64,000 bases of DNA from Clostridia bacterium (lineage in GTDB: Bacteria > Bacillota > Clostridia > Christensenellales > UBA1242). Made by a program: the position numbers and the translations under genes. The stretch's first letter is position 1. Each line of letters opens with the position of its first letter. The notes under the pieces are model-generated. The model was given only the letters and a program-made list of their open reading frames with translations. It did no database searches and was not told the origin of the DNA. The stretch covers positions 19,617 to 83,616 of the forward strand of contig JAFWBI010000004.1 of NCBI GenBank assembly GCA_017507215.1. Direction: 5' to 3'. Below are positions 3,528 through 61,721 of the stretch, in pieces.

Positions 3528-4637
3528 TTATTGTTTTTCAAATGGGTAAACACTTGTGGTGTATGAGTTTTCTGAAATCTTTGAAACATAGTTCATAAGG
3601 TTTTTGATTTGCGCTTGTGCTTCGTTTGCTGTTCCAAGGCTGGTTGAGTTTGAAAGTGGCATGTGGAATCTTTCGACGAATTTTTTGAATTTTACATCTA
3701 CAAAATATTCATACATGTCTTTGCTTGAAAGAGCATATTGTTTTTCTAAATCTCTCATGAAGTCTAAGCAAAGTTCTTCATATAAGTCATTTGCTTTTTT
3801 GATTGCTGCAAGACGTTCTTGCTCAGCTGGGCTGATGGTTGGTTCAACCTTAGAGCGTTCTAATTTGGCTTTTTCAATTTCAGCTTGAACATCATCTCTA
3901 AAAGCCTTATCTTTTTTTGCTGCATTTATCATGTGACTGTTGAAAATTGAAAGTTCTGTTGCAAAATCAGCAAATACTTCTTTGCCGGTTTCTGCAAGGC
4001 CAAAGCCCAAATCTTCAACAACTGCAACTTTTGCTGAACATGTTTTGAGTGCTGCAATCATTTTTTTGTTTAATGCTGTTGTCAAACTTGAAAACTCAGC
4101 GAAGTTTTGATTTCTTTCAAAGCAAATATTTTGTGCTTTTTCAGCAAGTGTGAAAAATTTGCTGAGTTCGTTTACAAATTCTTGCAAATTATCATATTTT
4201 TTGCGTGATTCTTGAGTGTGGAAATGTTGTAATTTTAATTCATCTTCAGTTCCACGAATTGAGTTTAAGTATGTTTTATATGCAACAAGTGCAGTCTTGA
4301 TAACTTGCATGTTGTCATTGTAATCACTAAGCTCTTCGATTGGTTTTAATGTGATTTTTTTGCTCAACTCAAACGAATGAACGACGGGGTTTTGCTTTAC
4401 GAGTTTGTAAACAGTTGACGAAATTAAGCCGATAAGCAAGTTTTCAACTGAAGCAAGTTCGAGTGGAAGTGCTTTTTCAATGATTTCGTCAAATTGCTTT
4501 CTCACGTTTTCATCATGTTTGATGCTTGACAAAACTTCTTGAACCCCAGGTTCGTCTGTGTTTGACAATAAAATGAAAAGACCTTCAACGTTTTTGTGAC
4601 CTTCTGCAAAAAAATCTTCTAAAGTAAATTTATCCAT
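3528..4637 (-). CDS. hypothetical soluble, helix-rich protein
   Basis: 369-aa ORF with GGAG-type RBS (gggagaattattATG). No recognisable motif. Confidence 0.5.
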   Translation of the reverse strand: MDKFTLEDFFAEGHKNVEGLFILLSNTDEPGVQEVLSSIKHDENVRKQFDEIIEKALPLELASVENLLIGLISSTVYKLVKQNPVVHSFELSKKITLKPIEELSDYNDNMQVIKTALVAYKTYLNSIRGTEDELKLQHFHTQESRKKYDNLQEFVNELSKFFTLAEKAQNICFERNQNFAEFSSLTTALNKKMIAALKTCSAKVAVVEDLGFGLAETGKEVFADFATELSIFNSHMINAAKKDKAFRDDVQAEIEKAKLERSKVEPTISPAEQERLAAIKKANDLYEELCLDFMRDLEKQYALSSKDMYEYFVDVKFKKFVERFHMPLSNSTSLGTANEAQAQIKNLMNYVSKISENSYTTSVYPFEKQ

Positions 4638-8303: not shown

Positions 8304-11300
8304 ATGAAAAAAAGTGCCGTAATTAATAAAATTAAGGAATATCACATCATCAAGAAGATTTTGAATGATGCTGGTATCAAAAAATTGCCAGTAGACTCTA
8401 AAGTTGCTCATTTTATTGCAGCTTTTACTGCGCACGTAAAATATTTTGGTTCAATTAAAATTGGGGCTCATGAAACATTTGATGAATTGTTTGCAAGATT
8501 AGAAGGATCATATCTTTCATCTGATGCGTCTCATAAAAAGATTGATCCAGAACAAGCTGGTTATGAACACTATATTGAAGATGTTCTTGGAGCAACTGTT
8601 CTTGATTCAGTTGGTGCAACACTTGAACAACCTGAAAATAAAGAAAAAATGAGAGCGTTCACACTTGAGGTTGGTAGAAAACAAACAACAACAGCACTTG
8701 TTGTTGCTAACTCTGTTAGAGATTATGCAGCTCTTGCAATAGTGATGGAAGAACTTGCAAGAGTGTCTGGTTCAGATGCTTCAAAACAAATCCAACTTGA
8801 AAGAATTGCTGGTCTTTTAGATATGTCTGAAAAGAAAAATGTGACAATGGAACAAATTCGTGCCGTTGCTGGACATATGGAGGCTAGAATTATTGCAAAA
8901 ATTGTTGCAGCGGCTCCAAAAAGCGATGAGGATTTCATCAAAGGTATTGCAATTTTAACTGGAAGAAAAGTTAATGAAATTAAAACTTTAGTTCAAAGTC
9001 AACATGGAGAAATTTTAAATGCTATTGGTGAAATTAAAACACCAATTACTGGAATGGCTGTTGACCTTGGAACTGTTAAAACAGATGTTGCACACATCAA
9101 AGGAAAAGTTGATGCTATGGCATCAGATATTGATGAAATTAAGAAAAATACAGCTGGTTTAGGTAAAAAGAAGACAGCTCTTGCTGTTACTGCAGGTGCT
9201 GCAGGAATGGCTGCACTTCTTGTTGGTGGACACTTCCTTGGCAGCGCAATCTATAATGCTGTTACTCCTGATAAATTAACAGAAACTGAACTTTTAACAG
9301 ACTACATGAGTTTGGTGAATGTGATTAATGGTCTTCAAGTTGATGGCATTTCAGACGCTGAAAAACAAAACTTTGTTGATGTTGACCTTAATGCTTTTGT
9401 TGAAAAATATAAAGGTACAAATCTTGAAGCTAAGAGCTTAGAATGTAGAGATGCTTTGCTTGCTAATATTAATGGAACAATGGAAATTGGTGGTCAAGTT
9501 GGTTTGATTACTGGATATTTCCAAGACACAGCTGCTCTTGACGCAACATTAAACACATTGATTCAAAGCAATGGTGCATTAGATGCAAATGAAAGAGATG
9601 GATTCATTTCTGGAGATGTTGCAGCATTCACAGCAAAATATGCTGGAACAGCTCTTGAAACAGCAAGTAAAACTGATGCAGCTGGATTTACAGCTTATGC
9701 AAACGCAGCTTATGAACTTGGTGCATCTAACTATGATGCAATCAAAGCACTTGCTGATGGATATAGCATTGATGTTAAATCACTTATTGTTGAACTTGAT
9801 AGACTCACAGATGATGCTGACGGTTTAACTCAAGCAGATAAAGATGCTTTTGTTGGTTCAGCAAGTGACCCAAATGCAGTTTCTGTTTATAACTTCACAC
9901 AAAAATATGCTGGAACAGCATTTGAATCAGCAAGCCAAGGACAAGGCACTGAACTTTCAGCGCTTGCTGAAACACTTAGAATTTTGACTCAATCAGGCGT
10001 TGATTTATCAAATGTTAATGCTGATTTGATTGCTTATGGAAACGACGTTGCAAAACTTAACGTTGACCTTAGCAACTTGATTAATGATGCTGATGGTTTA
10101 ACTCAAGCAGAAAGCGATAACTTCTTTGCAAACGATGTTGCAGCATTCACGGCAAAATATGCTGGAACAGCACTTGAGGGTGCAAGCAAAAACCAAGAAA
10201 CTGGTCTTACATCTATTGCAACTGCAGCTCTTGGTCATGCTCAACTTTCAGCTGACAACGCTTTGCTTTCTGAATATCACTTAGACGTTCAAAATCTTAA
10301 CACTACACTTAGTGGTTTGATTTCAAATGATGGCGTTTTAGATGCTACTGAACTTGCAGCATTTATTGGTTCAGCAAGTGACCCAAATGCAATTTCAGTT
10401 TATAACTTCGTTGAAGAATATAAAGGAACATCTCTTGAAGCTGCTAGTGCTGCTCAAGCAGGTGGTTTCACAACAACTGCTAACAGCACATATGAACTTG
10501 GACAAACACAACAACTTATGGCTGACTACAATTCAGATTTAGCAAGTCTTGATTCGGCATTATATGGCTATCTTGCAGATGCTTCTTATGAAGCTGCAGA
10601 AAAAACTGAATTTGAAGGTCTTGTTCAAGACTTCTTAGATAAATACGCTTCAACAACTCTTAAAGCTAGAAGTGAAATTGACGCTGATGTTATGAAGACA
10701 TTGTCAACAAGAATCAGTGAAATGAGCGAACTTAAGCAACAAGTTATCAGTGAACTTGCGACTGAAAAGGGCAAGGTTGCTGACCTTAATAATCAAATTG
10801 TAGCACTTAGAAGTGAAAATGATACACTTGCAGCAACCAATAAAGATTATGCTGACAGAATCACAGCTCTTGAAGCTCAAGTTAAAGAATTGAGTGGCAA
10901 AATTGATGAACTTATGAACAAGATTGCAAATGCTCCAACAGATGCACAAGTTCAAGCACTTCTTGCACAAATTGGAGAACTTGAAGCACAAATTACTGAT
11001 TTGAACAATCAAGTTTCTTCACTTAAAGGTCAAGTTTCAACTCTTACAACAGAAAATGCTGAACTTAAAGCTAAGAATGAAGAACTTACAACAGAAGTTT
11101 CTAACCTTAAAACAGAAAATGCTGGACTTAAAGCTGACCTTGATGCAGCAAATGCAACAATTGATTCACTCAATCAAGTTGTTGATATTTTGAAAACTGA
11201 AAAGGCTAGTCTTGAAGAACAACTTAAAAACAAAGATATTACAATTGCTGAATACGAAGCAAGAATTGCAGAACTTGAAGCTATTGAAACAGAGCTTAGA

Positions 11301-20282: not shown

Positions 20283-20573
20283 CTCCTTTTTGGGTGTGTT
20301 ATTTTTTGTTTTAAGCTAAAACAAAATAAAAAGCCTAATCTTGCTCGTTTCCGATAGCAAAAGAGAATAATGATTTATTCAATTTTGCTAAGGGGCGAGA
20401 GATTAGACCCGTGGTTCCACCCTTATTAGTGTTTGAAATATGCTCAAACACTCACTTTTTTAACGGAATTGCTCCAAAGTGCCTTCGACTTGCGTTTGCT
20501 GTTCTTATTCCACCATCAAGAACTCTCTTATAGCAACCTTCAAGCTTACTATTCTTCTTCACTGCAATTTTAT
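20283..20573 (-). promoter_or_regulatory. T-box riboswitch leader (Gly specifier GGC)
   Basis: Read on the minus strand: AGAGAG K-turn region; specifier loop GUCGAAGGCACUUUGGAGCA with the GGC codon at 20481-20483; T-box core AAGGGUGGAACCACGGG (20408-20424); terminator GUCUAAUCUCUCG / CGAGCAAGAUUAGGC followed by UUUUUAUUUU (about 20322-20410). Confidence 0.85.
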
Positions 20574-60227: not shown

Positions 60228-60626
60228 ATGGTAGATATTTATACATTTGAGATTCACAGCTTAGAGTTTGAAAGAATTCTTTCAGGAAAGAAAACAGCAC
60301 AACTTTTGGTTAATGATTCAAAACACAAAGACTATGCCGTTGGAAACAAAATTACTTTTAAAAGAAGTTTGGAAGAATTGACAGAAGATGAACAAAAACT
60401 TTTAAACAAAGGCAAACTTGTGACAGAAATTGATGCAACCATTATGAATTTGCTTTATTTCAATGATTTTATTGAAGCTGTCAACACTCTTGGAAAGGAA
60501 AGTTGTGGATTTAAGTCAAGTGCTACTATCGAAAAAACATCAGATTTGTTTTTGGCAGAAGATTCTTATGAAGCTGTTGAAAAATATGGAATTGTCGCTC
60601 TTGTGTTTGAACCTGTGAAAAAGTAA
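60228..60626 (+). CDS. ASCH-domain-like protein
   Basis: YTFEIHSLEFERILSGKKTAQLLVND...YAVGNKITFKR resembles the ASCH N-terminal beta-barrel pattern. Confidence 0.5.
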   Translation: MVDIYTFEIHSLEFERILSGKKTAQLLVNDSKHKDYAVGNKITFKRSLEELTEDEQKLLNKGKLVTEIDATIMNLLYFNDFIEAVNTLGKESCGFKSSATIEKTSDLFLAEDSYEAVEKYGIVALVFEPVKK

Positions 60627-60681
60627 AATAGGGAAGAAATAAAAAATTTGACAAAAAATTTAAAAATTTTTATAAAAACAC

Positions 60682-60710
60682 TAGACAAATTTAAAATTTA
60701 AGATTATACT
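60682..60710 (+). promoter_or_regulatory. promoter of tRNA-Leu
   Basis: TAGACA, 17-nt spacer, TATACT. The pre-tRNA leader contains the hairpin GTAATTT-gaaa-AAATTAC. Confidence 0.45.
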
Positions 60711-60744
60711 TAGTTTCGTAATTTGAAAAAATTACAACTCCCTT

Positions 60745-60828
60745 GCGAGGATGGCGGAATGGCAGACGCGATCGTTTAAGGGGCGGTTTCCGAAAGGAGT
60801 GAGGGTTCGACCCCCTTTCCTCGCACCA
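60745..60828 (+). tRNA. tRNA-Leu, best fold gives anticodon AAG (class II, encoded CCA)
   Basis: Acceptor stem GCGAGGA/TCCTCGC, discriminator A, CCA. D arm GCGG-AATGGCAGA-CGC. Anticodon arm ATCGT-TTAAGGG-GCGGT. Long variable arm TTCC-GAAA-GGAG. T arm GAGGG-TTCGACC-CCCTT. Confidence 0.85.
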
Positions 60829-60862
60829 AAAAAATCCCAGCACATTGTGTTGGGATTTTTTA
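60829..60862 (+). terminator. intrinsic terminator after tRNA-Leu
   Basis: ATCCCAGCAC-att-GTGTTGGGAT followed by T6. Confidence 0.65.
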
Positions 60863-60880
60863 TTGTCTAAAAATAAAATT

Positions 60881-60950
60881 TGAAGAAAAAATAAAACCCA
60901 TGACCAAATATTAGATGCCATGGGTAAAAGAAAATATTTTGCTTTTGTGT
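60881..60950 (-). ncRNA. candidate small RNA unit 3 (promoter plus terminator-delimited)
   Basis: Minus strand: TTGATG (60980-60985), 17-nt spacer, TATAAT (60957-60962). About 30-nt 5' tail containing ACAAAAGC, then ACCCATG...CATGGGT hairpin followed by UUUUAUUUUUU. Confidence 0.3.
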
Positions 60951-60992
60951 ATTTCTATTATATGTAATAAAAATATAAACATCAATATTTTG

Positions 60993-61066
60993 CAATAAAA
61001 AAATCAATCCTATATTTTGGCGTTTCCACCGAGTTCCTTTAAACAAGTAAAGGCTTTTGGATTGAT
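60993..61066 (-). ncRNA. candidate small RNA unit 1 (three-way-junction fold)
   Basis: Minus strand: TTGACT (61096-61101), 17-nt spacer, TACAAT (61073-61078). RNA AUCAAUCC-AAAAG-CCUUUA(cuuguu)UAAAGG-AACUC-GGUG(GAAA)CGCC-AAAAUAUA-GGAUUGAU followed by U7. Confidence 0.4.
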
Positions 61067-61109
61067 GAAATCATTGTATGTCAAAACACATAAAAAGTCA
61101 ATATCATGC

Positions 61110-61174
61110 AATAAAAAAATCAACCCTTGCTGTGTTACCACAATATAATCGTCTTTTGGACTTGGTTGATTTAT
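61110..61174 (-). ncRNA. candidate small RNA unit 2 (paralogue of unit 1)
   Basis: Minus strand: TTAACT (61204-61209), 17-nt spacer, TATAAT (61181-61186). RNA AUCAACC-AA-GUC(CAAAA)GAC-GAUUAUAU-UGUG(GUAA)CACA-GCAAG-GGUUGAU followed by U7. Confidence 0.4.
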
Positions 61175-61292
61175 GGTTATATTATATATTGCAAATATAA
61201 GTTAGTTAATAATTGAAACAAAGAATATTAATTTATTTGCCAAACTTGTTTTAGATTTGTTATATTTGACATAGATTTATTGGGGGAAGATT

Positions 61293-61721
61293 ATGGAATT
61301 AACAAAAAAAGATAAAGAACTTATCGAAATTGCAACAGAAGTTGTGAAGTCAAATTCTGACCTTTATGAACATCTTGGAATGCACGTGGGTGCTGCTGTT
61401 CGTGCAAAGTCTGGAAAGATTTATAAGGGAATAAACATCAACACTTCTCATTCAATTTGTGCTGAACAAGTTGCAATGGGTCAAGCATTTGCTTGTGGTG
61501 AGCGTGACCTTGAAGCAATGGTTTCAGTGAAAATGAATAACGATGGTTCGGTTCGTGTGGTTTCACCATGTGGGCTTTGCAGATATACATTTGATAAGTT
61601 TAATGATAGCTTTGATGTTATTTTGGAAGATATTGAAACTGGTGAAATTTTGAAAGTTGATTCACTTGAGCTTTTGCCATATCCTTACAAAAGAGAGTCT
61701 TTACACAAAAAGAAAGTCTAA
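61293..61721 (+). CDS. cdd: cytidine deaminase family protein (homotetrameric CDA / blasticidin-S deaminase type)
   Basis: GAAVRAKSGKIYKGININ...HSICAEQVAMG...VSPCGLCR zinc-binding motifs. 142 aa. RBS GGGGGAAG. Confidence 0.7.
   Translation: MELTKKDKELIEIATEVVKSNSDLYEHLGMHVGAAVRAKSGKIYKGININTSHSICAEQVAMGQAFACGERDLEAMVSVKMNNDGSVRVVSPCGLCRYTFDKFNDSFDVILEDIETGEILKVDSLELLPYPYKRESLHKKKV

What the first reader, a model, noticed from the sequence alone, without database searches (positions are those of the whole stretch)
60881..61209. Three tandem promoter-to-terminator mini transcription units on the minus strand: candidate family of paralogous small RNAs
The 460-nt gap between tRNA-Leu and cdd has no credible ORF. 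On the minus strand it contains three head-to-tail modules of about 105-115 bp. Each has a near-consensus sigma-A promoter with an exact 17-nt spacer (TTAACT/TATAAT, TTGACT/TACAAT, TTGATG/TATAAT), followed 7 nt later by a 60-70-nt RNA that ends in a stem plus U7-type intrinsic terminator. Units 1 and 2 share the same architecture. A closing helix (AUCAAUCC/GGAUUGAU and AUCAACC/GGUUGAU) doubles as the terminator stem and encloses two short hairpins, one capped by a GNRA tetraloop (GAAA, GUAA). The segment joining one unit's terminator to the next unit's promoter is duplicated (TTTTTTTATTGCAnnATATTGA). All three RNAs carry a CAAAAG(C/A) motif near the 5' end (UCCAAAAGCC, UCCAAAAGAC, ACAAAAGCA). 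Strand assignment is supported three ways: the GNRA loops exist only on the minus strand, a G-U pair in unit 1 (GGUG/CGCC) becomes a C-A mismatch on the plus strand, and the U-tracts follow the stems only on the minus strand. I do not recognise the fold as a known RNA family.
Basis: seen in the sequence. Interest (0 to 1): 0.65.

Follow-up and report, generated by a model that had tools for sequence, protein, structure and literature searches.

The report
Tandem phage-type small RNA genes
The gap between tRNA-Leu and cdd holds three back-to-back small-RNA genes, and one belongs to an uncatalogued structured RNA family that also sits, in antisense orientation, inside filamentous-phage-like prophages of gut Clostridia.

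Summary
On the minus strand of 60881-61209 there are three promoter-like sites (10/12 matches, 17-nt spacers). Each is followed a few bases later by a short structured RNA that ends in a stem plus U-tract.

- **Units A and B** fold as three-way junctions. The closing helix doubles as the terminator stem.
- **Unit C** is a plain hairpin RNA.
- **Rfam 15** has no match for any of them.

Relatives show this is not chance. I collected 12 three-way-junction units from related MAGs and metagenomes. They keep the fold (98% of cells paired, 13 of 18 pairs changed on both sides) and nearly all keep a promoter and a U-tract. In all 12, the structure is more stable on the RNA-sense strand.

The new point is origin. 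Unit A's family is also found inside roughly 10-kb inovirus-like prophages (Zot plus rolling-circle Rep) next to a tRNA-Leu(UAG) fragment. There the RNA lies antisense to every called phage gene.

The chromosomal array gains and loses whole modules between close relatives.

My best reading is stand-alone chromosomal copies of a phage-type antisense or regulatory RNA. Their function is inferred, not shown.

I rate this a new member of a known kind, of moderate interest.

The parts
61181..61209 (-). Unit A promoter-like site, TTAACT-17-TATAAT. It lies back-to-back with the cdd promoter region.
   Evidence: 10/12. L010 has an orthologous promoter in the same position, but there it drives a B-type RNA.
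61113..61173 (-). Unit A RNA (A-type three-way junction). P1 61170-61164/61125-61119, P2 61161-61159/61153-61151 with loop CAAAA, P3 61142-61139/61134-61131 with loop GUAA, U7 61119-61113. The 5' end is inferred from the -10 box, not mapped.
   Evidence: Fold. Model R1 scores it 89.3 bits, E 2e-18, but it is one of the training sequences. Covariation.
61098..61119 (-). Terminator-to-promoter junction repeat, copy 1 (TTTTTTTATTGCATGATATTGA).
   Evidence: D1 repeat family.
61073..61101 (-). Unit B promoter-like site, TTGACT-17-TACAAT.
60997..61067 (-). Unit B RNA (B-type three-way junction). P1 61066-61059/61010-61003, P2 CCUUUA/UAAAGG, P3 GGUG-GAAA-CGCC, U7 61003-60997.
   Evidence: Fold. Orthologue in L010 with a U-A to U-G change in P1. 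A related unit in L006 has a compensatory P1, AACAACUC/GAGUUGUU.
60982..61003 (-). Terminator-to-promoter junction repeat, copy 2 (TTTTTTTATTGCAAAATATTGA).
60957..60985 (-). Unit C promoter-like site, TTGATG-17-TATAAT.
60886..60950 (-). Unit C RNA. Hairpin 60925-60917/60904-60896 with the 12-nt loop AUCUAAUAUUUG, then UUUAUUUUUU.
   Evidence: Fold (z -3.2). L006 10434-10446 keeps the loop (AUCUAAUAGUUGG) with a different stem sequence, but its predicted fold is poor.
60830..60860 (.). Inverted repeat with A- and T-tracts on either side. It looks like a bidirectional terminator that ends tRNA-Leu on the plus strand and would stop read-through from unit C on the minus strand.
   Evidence: I3, 15-nt arms, 93% complementary; sequence.
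60745..60828 (+). tRNA-Leu (anticodon AAG). It is convergent with the array, and its downstream flank is an integration and variation hotspot in relatives.
   Evidence: Integrase directly downstream in L026.

Best explanation
The region is a tandem array of three independently transcribed small-RNA genes. Each is a sigma-A-type promoter, then a 57-70-nt structured RNA, then an intrinsic terminator.

**Units**
- Unit A belongs to a conserved RNA family absent from Rfam 15. It is a small three-way junction. The 7-8-bp closing helix P1, followed directly by U6-U8, also serves as the terminator stem. P2 is a short hairpin. P3 is a 4-bp hairpin capped by a GNRA loop.
- Unit B is a diverged unit with the same architecture.
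- Unit C is a separate hairpin-type RNA.

**Origin.** The A-type family is also carried by inovirus-like (filamentous-phage-like) prophages that lie next to a tRNA-Leu fragment. There the RNA gene is antisense to all the called phage genes. It sits in the 122-nt gap between orf112 (just downstream of the rolling-circle Rep gene) and orf231.

**Array evolution.** Whole promoter-to-terminator modules are gained and lost between close relatives. I infer that this happens by recombination between the conserved terminator-to-promoter junctions.

**Shown versus inferred**
- Shown: anatomy, conservation, covariation, strand bias, the phage linkage and the module turnover.
- Inferred: in the phage, the RNA acts as a cis-antisense regulator of the phage transcript that runs through this gap. 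In position it resembles the oppositely oriented immunity gene of other filamentous prophages (that comparison is from my own knowledge, not tested).
- Inferred: the chromosomal copies in this window express the same kind of RNA in trans. They could then pair with transcripts of related incoming or resident phages (cross-immunity or cross-regulation), or they may have been taken over for host regulation.
For: **Anatomy**
- Three 10/12 promoters with 17-nt spacers and three folds ending in U-tracts.

**Promoters in relatives**
- 16 of 19 units of all types across loci have a 9-12/12 promoter. The -10 box ends 3-11 nt before the first helix.

**Family**
- Model R1 finds non-training members in L041 (38.6 bits, E 5e-6) and L006 (34.3 bits, E 6e-5).
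- It also finds members in the prophage loci L064-L067 (75.1 bits, E 1e-15).

**Structure, 12 sequences**
- 98.3% of cells paired, against 84.4 +/- 1.5 in shuffles (0 of 500 reach it).
- 13 of 18 pairs change on both sides, against 4.5 in shuffles and 1-3 in slid controls.
- All four P3 pairs covary, while the loop stays GNRA (GUAA, GAAA, GUGA).

**Strand**
- The model structure is more stable on the RNA-sense strand in 12 of 12 members. The sums are -150.9 and -117.1 kcal/mol.

**Selection**
- The L046 and L035 units are nearly identical. The adjacent protein is only 33% identical and the next one 70%.
- winA and the L020 unit differ by compensatory changes in P2 and P3.

**Phage linkage**
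- Gene maps.
- Zot passes the Pfam cut-off (26.9 against 20.3), as does REP_ORF2-G2P (36 against 27.8).
- PHROG Zot-like E 3e-12 and rolling-circle initiator E 2e-10.
- The best GenBank phage hits for Zot are Inoviridae records.
- L046 starts with the 3' half of a tRNA-Leu(UAG), read from the sequence.
- The RNA is antisense to all called genes in L064-L067.

**Module turnover**
- The window has A-B-C. L010 has B-D. L006 has C-like, then a stretch ending in its own terminator, then D, F and B-like. L020 has A-A-other. L017/L018 and L013 have none.
Against: - No transcript data exist. Promoters and terminators are consensus predictions, and the branched terminator is untested.
- The window, and the relatives' loci held here, contain no inovirus genes. 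So a trans target is hypothetical.
- No A-, B-, D- or E-type motif was found in IMG/VR, and the array region had no match in GenBank phages or PLSDB plasmids.
- B is not significantly similar to A under the A model (17.3 bits, E 0.83).
- The covariation alignment was fitted by hand to the structure and has only 12 related sequences.
- P2 in B and in L041_1 is aligned by structure, not by sequence homology.
- One A-type copy (L020, 4915-4978) has lost P2 and its promoter. So some copies do decay.
Confidence: 0.6

Rival explanations
1. Host-directed sibling sRNAs. The array encodes ordinary trans-acting regulatory RNAs, comparable to LhrC1-5 or Qrr1-5, that base-pair with host mRNAs. The phage copies would then be secondary or a vehicle for spread.
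For: - Tandem genes, each with its own promoter and terminator.
- Maintained in the chromosome of several related species with compensatory changes.
- L045 and L041 carry single or double copies in chromosomal settings.
Against: - No conserved single-stranded seed. The CAAAAG motif varies, and loops and junctions differ between A, B and C.
- Rapid presence/absence among close relatives is unusual for core regulators.
- Duplex prediction against 71 translation-initiation regions in the window gave only U-tract/A-rich pairings.
- The weak LhrC hit scores 17.8 bits against a gathering score of 110.
Confidence: 0.2
2. Decaying relics. The units are leftover promoter/terminator fragments of prophages or other elements that integrated at the tRNA-Leu hotspot. 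They are duplicated by unequal crossing-over and have no current function.
For: - The interval is hypervariable and receives integrative elements (integrase in L026; other cargo).
- Downstream of L041 unit 2, the sequence read by eye matches the stretch after the L046 unit, and a short translated match (74% over 31 aa, L046 1766-1855) spans the unit and about 20 nt beyond it. Beside it is a duplicated tRNA-Gln 3' end.
- One L020 copy is degenerate.
Against: - Helices are kept by compensatory changes within the chromosomal lineage (winA against L020_2; winB against L010_1 and L006_3).
- Promoters stay at 10-11/12 and U-tracts stay intact.
- The region is identical across the five same-species contigs held.
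- The RNA is far better conserved than the neighbouring proteins.
Confidence: 0.12
3. Terminator-embedded riboswitch or attenuator. The three-way junction binds a ligand or protein that stabilises P1, which is also the terminator, and so controls read-through into downstream sequence.
For: - P1 doubles as the terminator stem.
- A-type junction nucleotides are conserved (J1/2 AA, J3/1 AGCACG(G)).
- In L045 the unit lies about 60 nt upstream of a YitT-like membrane protein gene on the same strand, and the scan finds no second promoter between them.
Against: - In the window, and in most loci, nothing is downstream to regulate. Each unit is followed by another promoter, by a convergent gene or by the tRNA terminator.
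- In the prophage it is antisense to the called genes.
- B-type junctions share no sequence with A-type junctions.
- No riboswitch family matches.
Confidence: 0.06
4. DNA-level element. The conserved stems act in single-stranded or double-stranded DNA, for example as a filamentous-phage packaging signal, a minus-strand origin or a recombination site, and not as RNA.
For: - Filamentous phages use ssDNA hairpins for packaging and replication (general knowledge).
- The mirror-image structure also folds on the phage-sense strand (-16.5 kcal/mol, z -2.4).
Against: - If, as in known filamentous phages, the packaged strand is the gene-sense strand, it is the complement of the RNA. On that strand the 8 G-U cells become A-C mismatches, and the structure is weaker in 12 of 12 members.
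- A consensus double-stranded promoter and a U-tract flank nearly every unit.
- Chromosomal copies are never packaged.
- The prophage has a separate GC-rich hairpin region upstream of Rep that better fits an origin or packaging signal.
Confidence: 0.02

Closest known systems
Multicopy 'sibling' sRNA loci such as Listeria LhrC1-5 (Rfam RF00616) or Vibrio Qrr1-5
   Same: Several short RNA genes lie head to tail. Each has its own promoter and rho-independent terminator, and they arose by duplication and divergence.
   Different: - No sequence or structure match (LhrC 17.8 bits against a gathering score of 110).
- No shared C-rich or other seed.
- The units here differ in fold type (A/B against C) and turn over between close relatives.
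- The family is linked to a prophage.
Phage and plasmid antisense / immunity RNAs (P1/P7 c4 RNA, P4 CI RNA, P22 sar, lambda OOP, countertranscripts of rolling-circle plasmids); comparison drawn from my own knowledge
   Same: In the prophage the A-type RNA is a short, structured, constitutively promoted transcript with its own terminator. It is encoded opposite to the element's transcription, close to the replication module. Stem-loops on both strands could kiss.
   Different: - No homology to the c4 family or any other Rfam family.
- The host phage is a Gram-positive inovirus-like element.
- The RNA lies downstream of Rep, not in its leader.
- The window holds free-standing chromosomal copies in an array, with no cis target.
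Prophage-encoded sRNAs that limit infection by other phages (svsR of prophage NC-SV in E. coli; PMC12803456, abstract as listed)
   Same: A prophage-borne small RNA with a proposed role in phage-phage or phage-host conflict.
   Different: Different phage type, host and RNA. Here the function is only inferred, and the copies of interest lie outside any prophage.
Terminator-embedded aptamers (for example the HMP-PP thiS riboswitch); comparison drawn from my own knowledge
   Same: The structured, conserved domain shares its closing helix with the intrinsic terminator stem.
   Different: No regulated gene downstream in the window. Each unit has its own promoter. No ligand is known and no family matches.

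Membership tests
Any Rfam 15 family | Covariance-model score at or above the family's gathering threshold | tested here: not met
   Window 60500-61500 at E<=10: only tRNA passes. Every hit over the units is far below threshold. Whole window at gathering thresholds: only a T-box elsewhere. Seven related loci: only tRNA passes its threshold.
Bacterial stand-alone sRNA gene | Own promoter just upstream of the RNA | tested here: met
   Three 10/12 sites with 17-nt spacers. 16 of 19 units across loci have 9-12/12 sites ending 3-11 nt before the first helix. These are consensus matches only; activity is untested.
Bacterial stand-alone sRNA gene | Rho-independent terminator at the 3' end | tested here: inconclusive
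   A stem followed directly by U6-U8 is present in all 12 three-way-junction units and in unit C. In A and B the stem closes a branched structure, which the simple scan does not recognise. Termination efficiency is untested.
Bacterial stand-alone sRNA gene | A detected transcript of the predicted size | not testable with these tools
   No RNA-seq or metatranscriptome mapping is available here.
Conserved structured RNA family (A-type three-way junction) | Homologues in other genomes with compensatory base changes that support each helix | tested here: met
   R1 hits outside the training set. 13 of 18 pairs change on both sides and 98.3% of cells are paired; controls are. Caveats: hand-fitted alignment, 12 sequences.
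Cis-encoded antisense RNA of a mobile element | Encoded opposite to, and overlapping, a transcript of the same element | tested here: inconclusive
   Met by position for the A-type copies in L064-L067, L046 and L035. They are antisense to all called genes, in the orf112-orf231 gap, and the U-tract abuts the orf112 stop codon. The sense transcript through the gap is assumed, not observed. Not met in the window, which has no inovirus genes.
Riboswitch / transcription attenuator | Sits in the 5' leader of the gene it controls | tested here: not met
   In the window, each unit is followed by another promoter or by the convergent tRNA terminator. Only L045 has a same-strand gene downstream.
Type I or type III toxin-antitoxin locus | An adjacent toxin ORF (a small hydrophobic peptide, or a ToxN-like protein after the RNA repeats) | tested here: not met
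   No credible ORF in the gap. The only longer ORFs run antisense through the tRNA. The ATG inside unit C has no Shine-Dalgarno sequence and is absent from the L006 counterpart.
Inovirus-like prophage (context of A-type units in L064-L067) | Zot/pI-type assembly ATPase plus a rolling-circle Rep, in a compact unidirectional genome of about 10 kb | tested here: met
   Pfam Zot 26.9 against 20.3 and REP_ORF2-G2P 36 against 27.8. PHROG hits. Gene maps. The nearest GenBank phages are Inoviridae. Coat proteins and the virion are not identified.

The most novel reading that the evidence does not exclude
The array is an RNA-only immunity repertoire. On this reading, the host has captured the antisense 'immunity' RNAs of several filamentous-phage lineages (types A, B, C, and D-F in relatives). 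It keeps them as constitutively expressed promoter-to-terminator cassettes beside the tRNA-Leu hotspot. Each RNA would silence the matching incoming or resident phage in trans. Cassettes would be gained and lost by recombination at the conserved junctions as the phage population changes.
Probability: 0.1. Interest if true: 0.85.

Novelty: new member of a known kind. Interest (0 to 1): 0.52.

Why it matters
**A new RNA family.** It adds a structured RNA family absent from Rfam 15, with an unusual design: a three-way junction whose closing helix is also the terminator stem. The family comes from poorly studied, uncultured gut Clostridia.

**A link to filamentous prophages.** I found no published report of an RNA regulator in Gram-positive filamentous prophages in two literature searches. 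This gives a concrete, testable candidate for RNA-based control of lysogeny or superinfection in such phages.

**Modular evolution.** Small-RNA genes here evolve as movable promoter-to-terminator cassettes at a tRNA hotspot.

**If the chromosomal copies act on phages in trans,** this would be a simple nucleic-acid defence built from domesticated phage regulators.

Tried and rejected
1. **Rfam.** Both thresholds on the window and on seven related loci gave nothing beyond tRNA and a T-box.
2. **IMG/VR scans.** Six DNA-pattern scans for A-, B-, D- and E-type motifs gave only chance hits in coding or high-GC sequence, or no hits at all. The A-motif hits of one scan were also checked with model R1.
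3. **Metagenome scan.** 16 hits, of which 4 are real A-type units.
4. **Phage and plasmid databases.** The array and the L046 225-aa protein had no match in GenBank phages or PLSDB plasmids.
5. **Viral protein scans.** IMG/VR scans with the L046 163-aa and 225-aa proteins found nothing.
6. **att-like repeat.** There is no second copy of the tRNA-Leu 3' end in the window, so the array is not bounded by such a repeat.
7. **Target prediction.** Duplex folding against 71 translation-initiation regions in the window was dominated by U-tract pairing and was uninformative.
8. **Neighbouring proteins.** PADLOC, Pfam, PHROG and PDB searches gave no function for orf231, orf163 or orf112. The only hint is a sub-threshold HTH in orf231.
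9. **Ideas rejected by reading the sequence.** No hammerhead core (CUGAUGA) in unit B, no PyrR binding-site consensus, and no consistent GGA loop motif for CsrA. A CUU (Leu codon) in the B loop opposite tRNA-Leu(AAG) is not consistent across members.
10. **Small-ORF reading.** A coding reading of units B and C was rejected: no Shine-Dalgarno sequence and not conserved.

Full report
**1. The observation**

tRNA-Leu (anticodon AAG) occupies 60745-60828 on the plus strand. A CDA-family deaminase gene (cdd) starts at 61293. The 464 nt between them hold no credible ORF.

- 61209-61181
- 61101-61073
- 60985-60957

Folding the sequence after each -10 box gives these structures:
- **Unit A:** a three-way junction closed by AUCAACC/GGUUGAU. 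It encloses GUC-CAAAA-GAC and a GUAA-capped hairpin, and U7 follows at once.
- **Unit B:** the same layout, closed by AUCAAUCC/GGAUUGAU. It encloses a 6-bp hairpin and GGUG-GAAA-CGCC, then U7.
- **Unit C:** a 9-bp hairpin with a 12-nt loop, followed by a U-rich tract.

The 22-nt terminator-to-promoter junction occurs twice, and nowhere else in the 64 kb. An A/T-flanked inverted repeat at 60830-60860 separates the array from the convergent tRNA.

**2. No known family**

No Rfam 15 model comes near its threshold over the units, either in the window or in seven related loci.

**3. Relatives**

Five contigs of the same species are identical across the gap. Using PolA and the upstream ASCH-domain protein as anchors, I fetched the orthologous interval from related uncultured Clostridia MAGs.

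The interval is hypervariable. On the same strand it often carries other promoter-to-terminator units:

| Locus | Units in the interval |
|---|---|
| Window | A, B, C |
| L010 | B orthologue, D-type |
| L006 | C-like, a stretch ending in its own terminator, D-type, F-type, B-like |
| L020 | two A-type, one other |
| L015 / L023 | a longer E-type; L023 also has an F-type |
| L013, L017/L018 | none |
| L026 | a phage-type integrase in that position |

The B-like unit in L006 has a fully compensated closing helix, AACAACUC/GAGUUGUU.

Across loci, 16 of 19 units have a 9-12/12 promoter that ends 3-11 nt before the first helix. In L010 the promoter next to cdd is orthologous to the window's unit A promoter, yet it drives a B-type RNA. 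So whole modules are inserted or deleted. I infer that this happens by recombination between the conserved junctions.

**4. A wider family**

A pattern built from P1, P3 and the U-tract found four real A-type units in public metagenomes: L035, L041, L045 and L046. Each has a recognisable promoter (9-11/12 in three; a weaker TTGCTT/TATTAT site in L041). The other 12 hits were chance matches.

A covariance model built from seven A-type units then detected:
- a second, divergent unit in L041, with P1 AAUUCAAU/AUUGAAUU (38.6 bits)
- the L006 B-like unit (34.3 bits)
- window unit B only weakly (17.3 bits, E 0.83)

On a hand-made structural alignment of 12 units:
- 98.3% of pair cells are standard pairs, against 84.4% in shuffles.
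- 13 of 18 pairs change on both sides, against 4.5 in shuffles and 1-3 in slid controls.
- All four P3 pairs covary, while the loop remains GNRA.

The alignment was fitted to the structure and is small, so these figures support the fold but do not prove it.

The structure is more stable on the RNA-sense strand in all 12 members.

**5. What does not hold**

- The CAAAAG motif is the P2 stem-loop in A but J1/2 in B. It is replaced in the B orthologue of L010 (CCAUAUGCC) and in L041 (GCCCUUGGGGC). It is therefore not a conserved seed.
- Unit C is a different RNA type. Its one counterpart, in L006, keeps the loop sequence with a different stem, but the predicted fold there is poor.

**6. Origin**

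L046 and L035 share neighbouring genes at only 33% and 70% protein identity, yet their RNAs are nearly identical. L046 begins with the 3' half of a tRNA-Leu(UAG), which looks like an attachment-site copy.

Homologues of its 163-aa protein led to longer contigs, L063-L068. These show a compact, one-directional gene set of about 10 kb, in this order:
1. small ORFs
2. a 740-823-aa protein with Flg_new repeats
3. a Zot-type ATPase
4. a rolling-circle Rep of the G2P type
5. orf112
6. a 122-nt gap
7. orf231, orf55/75 and orf163
8. host genes

Zot and Rep pass Pfam's own thresholds and match PHROG families. The nearest GenBank phages are Inoviridae.

The A-type RNA gene lies in the 122-nt gap on the opposite strand (75.1 bits). 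It is antisense to every called phage gene. Its U-tract abuts the orf112 stop codon, and its promoter is back-to-back with the orf231 start.

A separate GC-rich hairpin region upstream of Rep is a better candidate for the origin or packaging signal.

In L041 the sequence after unit 2 resembles, by eye, the stretch that follows the unit in L046. A short translated match (74% over 31 aa) spans the unit and about 20 nt beyond it. The units there sit beside a duplicated tRNA-Gln 3' end. The window itself holds no inovirus genes.

**7. How it most likely works**

*Shown:*
- autonomous units with conserved promoters and terminators
- a conserved, covarying fold
- a bias toward the RNA-sense strand
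- linkage to filamentous-phage-like prophages
- cassette-like turnover at a tRNA hotspot

*Inferred:*
- In the prophage the RNA is a cis-antisense regulator of the transcript that passes from the Rep/orf112 module into orf231-orf163. In position it resembles the oppositely oriented immunity gene of other filamentous prophages (from my own knowledge).
- The mirror-image structure on the sense strand is followed by a U-rich stretch. Pairing could therefore alter termination or stability there.
- The chromosomal copies in the window would make the same kind of RNA in trans. They could act on related phages, may have been taken over for host regulation, or may be slowly decaying.

I put about 0.6 on the overall statement. 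Within that, roughly 0.3 goes to a phage-directed role for the chromosomal copies. The rivals and their tests are listed separately.

**8. Comparison and novelty**

In layout it works like sibling-sRNA loci, and in the phage setting like phage or plasmid antisense RNAs. It is a member of none of the catalogued families; the membership table gives the tests.

I rate it a new member of a known kind: a new small-RNA family with a branched terminator design and a prophage connection. Interest is moderate. It would be high if the chromosomal cassettes prove to be an RNA-only defence against filamentous phages.

Noticed in passing
window 60745-60828 (+); also L006 9727-9810, L008 9798-9881: The tRNA-Leu has anticodon AAG (A at position 34). 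From my own knowledge this is unusual for bacteria, because A34 normally implies inosine formation. The two relatives scanned (L006, L008) have the same anticodon. The tRNA sits between an ASCH-domain gene (60228-60626) and a CDA-family deaminase (61293-61721).
   Followed up: no
L026 3717-5281; L013 3722-4408; L020 3868-4626; L017 3403-3767: The interval downstream of tRNA-Leu differs in nearly every relative. It holds a phage-type integrase plus an HTH gene (L026), an Apyc1/MBL-fold gene (L013/L014), an unknown 252-aa ORF (L020), or almost nothing (L017/L018). It is an integration and variation hotspot.
   Followed up: partly
L006 10195-10289 and L010 3660-3758 (D); L006 10085-10160 and L023 3640-3735 (F); L015 1090-1215 and L023 ~3800-3925 (E); L020 4675-4768: The same interval holds at least four further promoter-to-terminator RNA types. 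All fold well (z -3 to -4.5), several have a GNRA-capped hairpin or a multibranch core, and none is in Rfam.
   Followed up: partly
L028 ~3700-3790; L026 ~3690-3716: Short direct repeats lie just beyond the tRNA: AATTCTACTCA four times in L028, and AAATTGCACTCA twice next to the integrase in L026. They look like arm-type recombinase binding sites.
   Followed up: no
L041 ~10730-10800 and ~10890-10960: The 3' end of tRNA-Gln and its terminator are duplicated about 150 nt apart, just upstream of the two A-type units. This looks like an attachment-site scar.
   Followed up: no
L064 7258-7616: The non-coding region upstream of the rolling-circle Rep gene in the inovirus-like prophage is GC-rich and full of long hairpins. 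It is a candidate replication origin or packaging signal.
   Followed up: no
L045 432-560: Here a single A-type unit lies about 60 nt upstream of a YitT-like (300-aa membrane) gene on the same strand. The scan finds no second promoter between them. This is the only locus where a cis-regulatory role is plausible.
   Followed up: partly
window 20388-20571 (-): A T-box leader (102.6 bits) is the only Rfam family that passes its gathering score in the whole-window scan.
   Followed up: no
window 60745-60825: The tRNA scores 40.6 bits (gathering score 29) in the E-value-mode Rfam scan of 1 kb. It is missing from the gathering-mode scan of the whole window, presumably lost to the speed filters.
   Followed up: no
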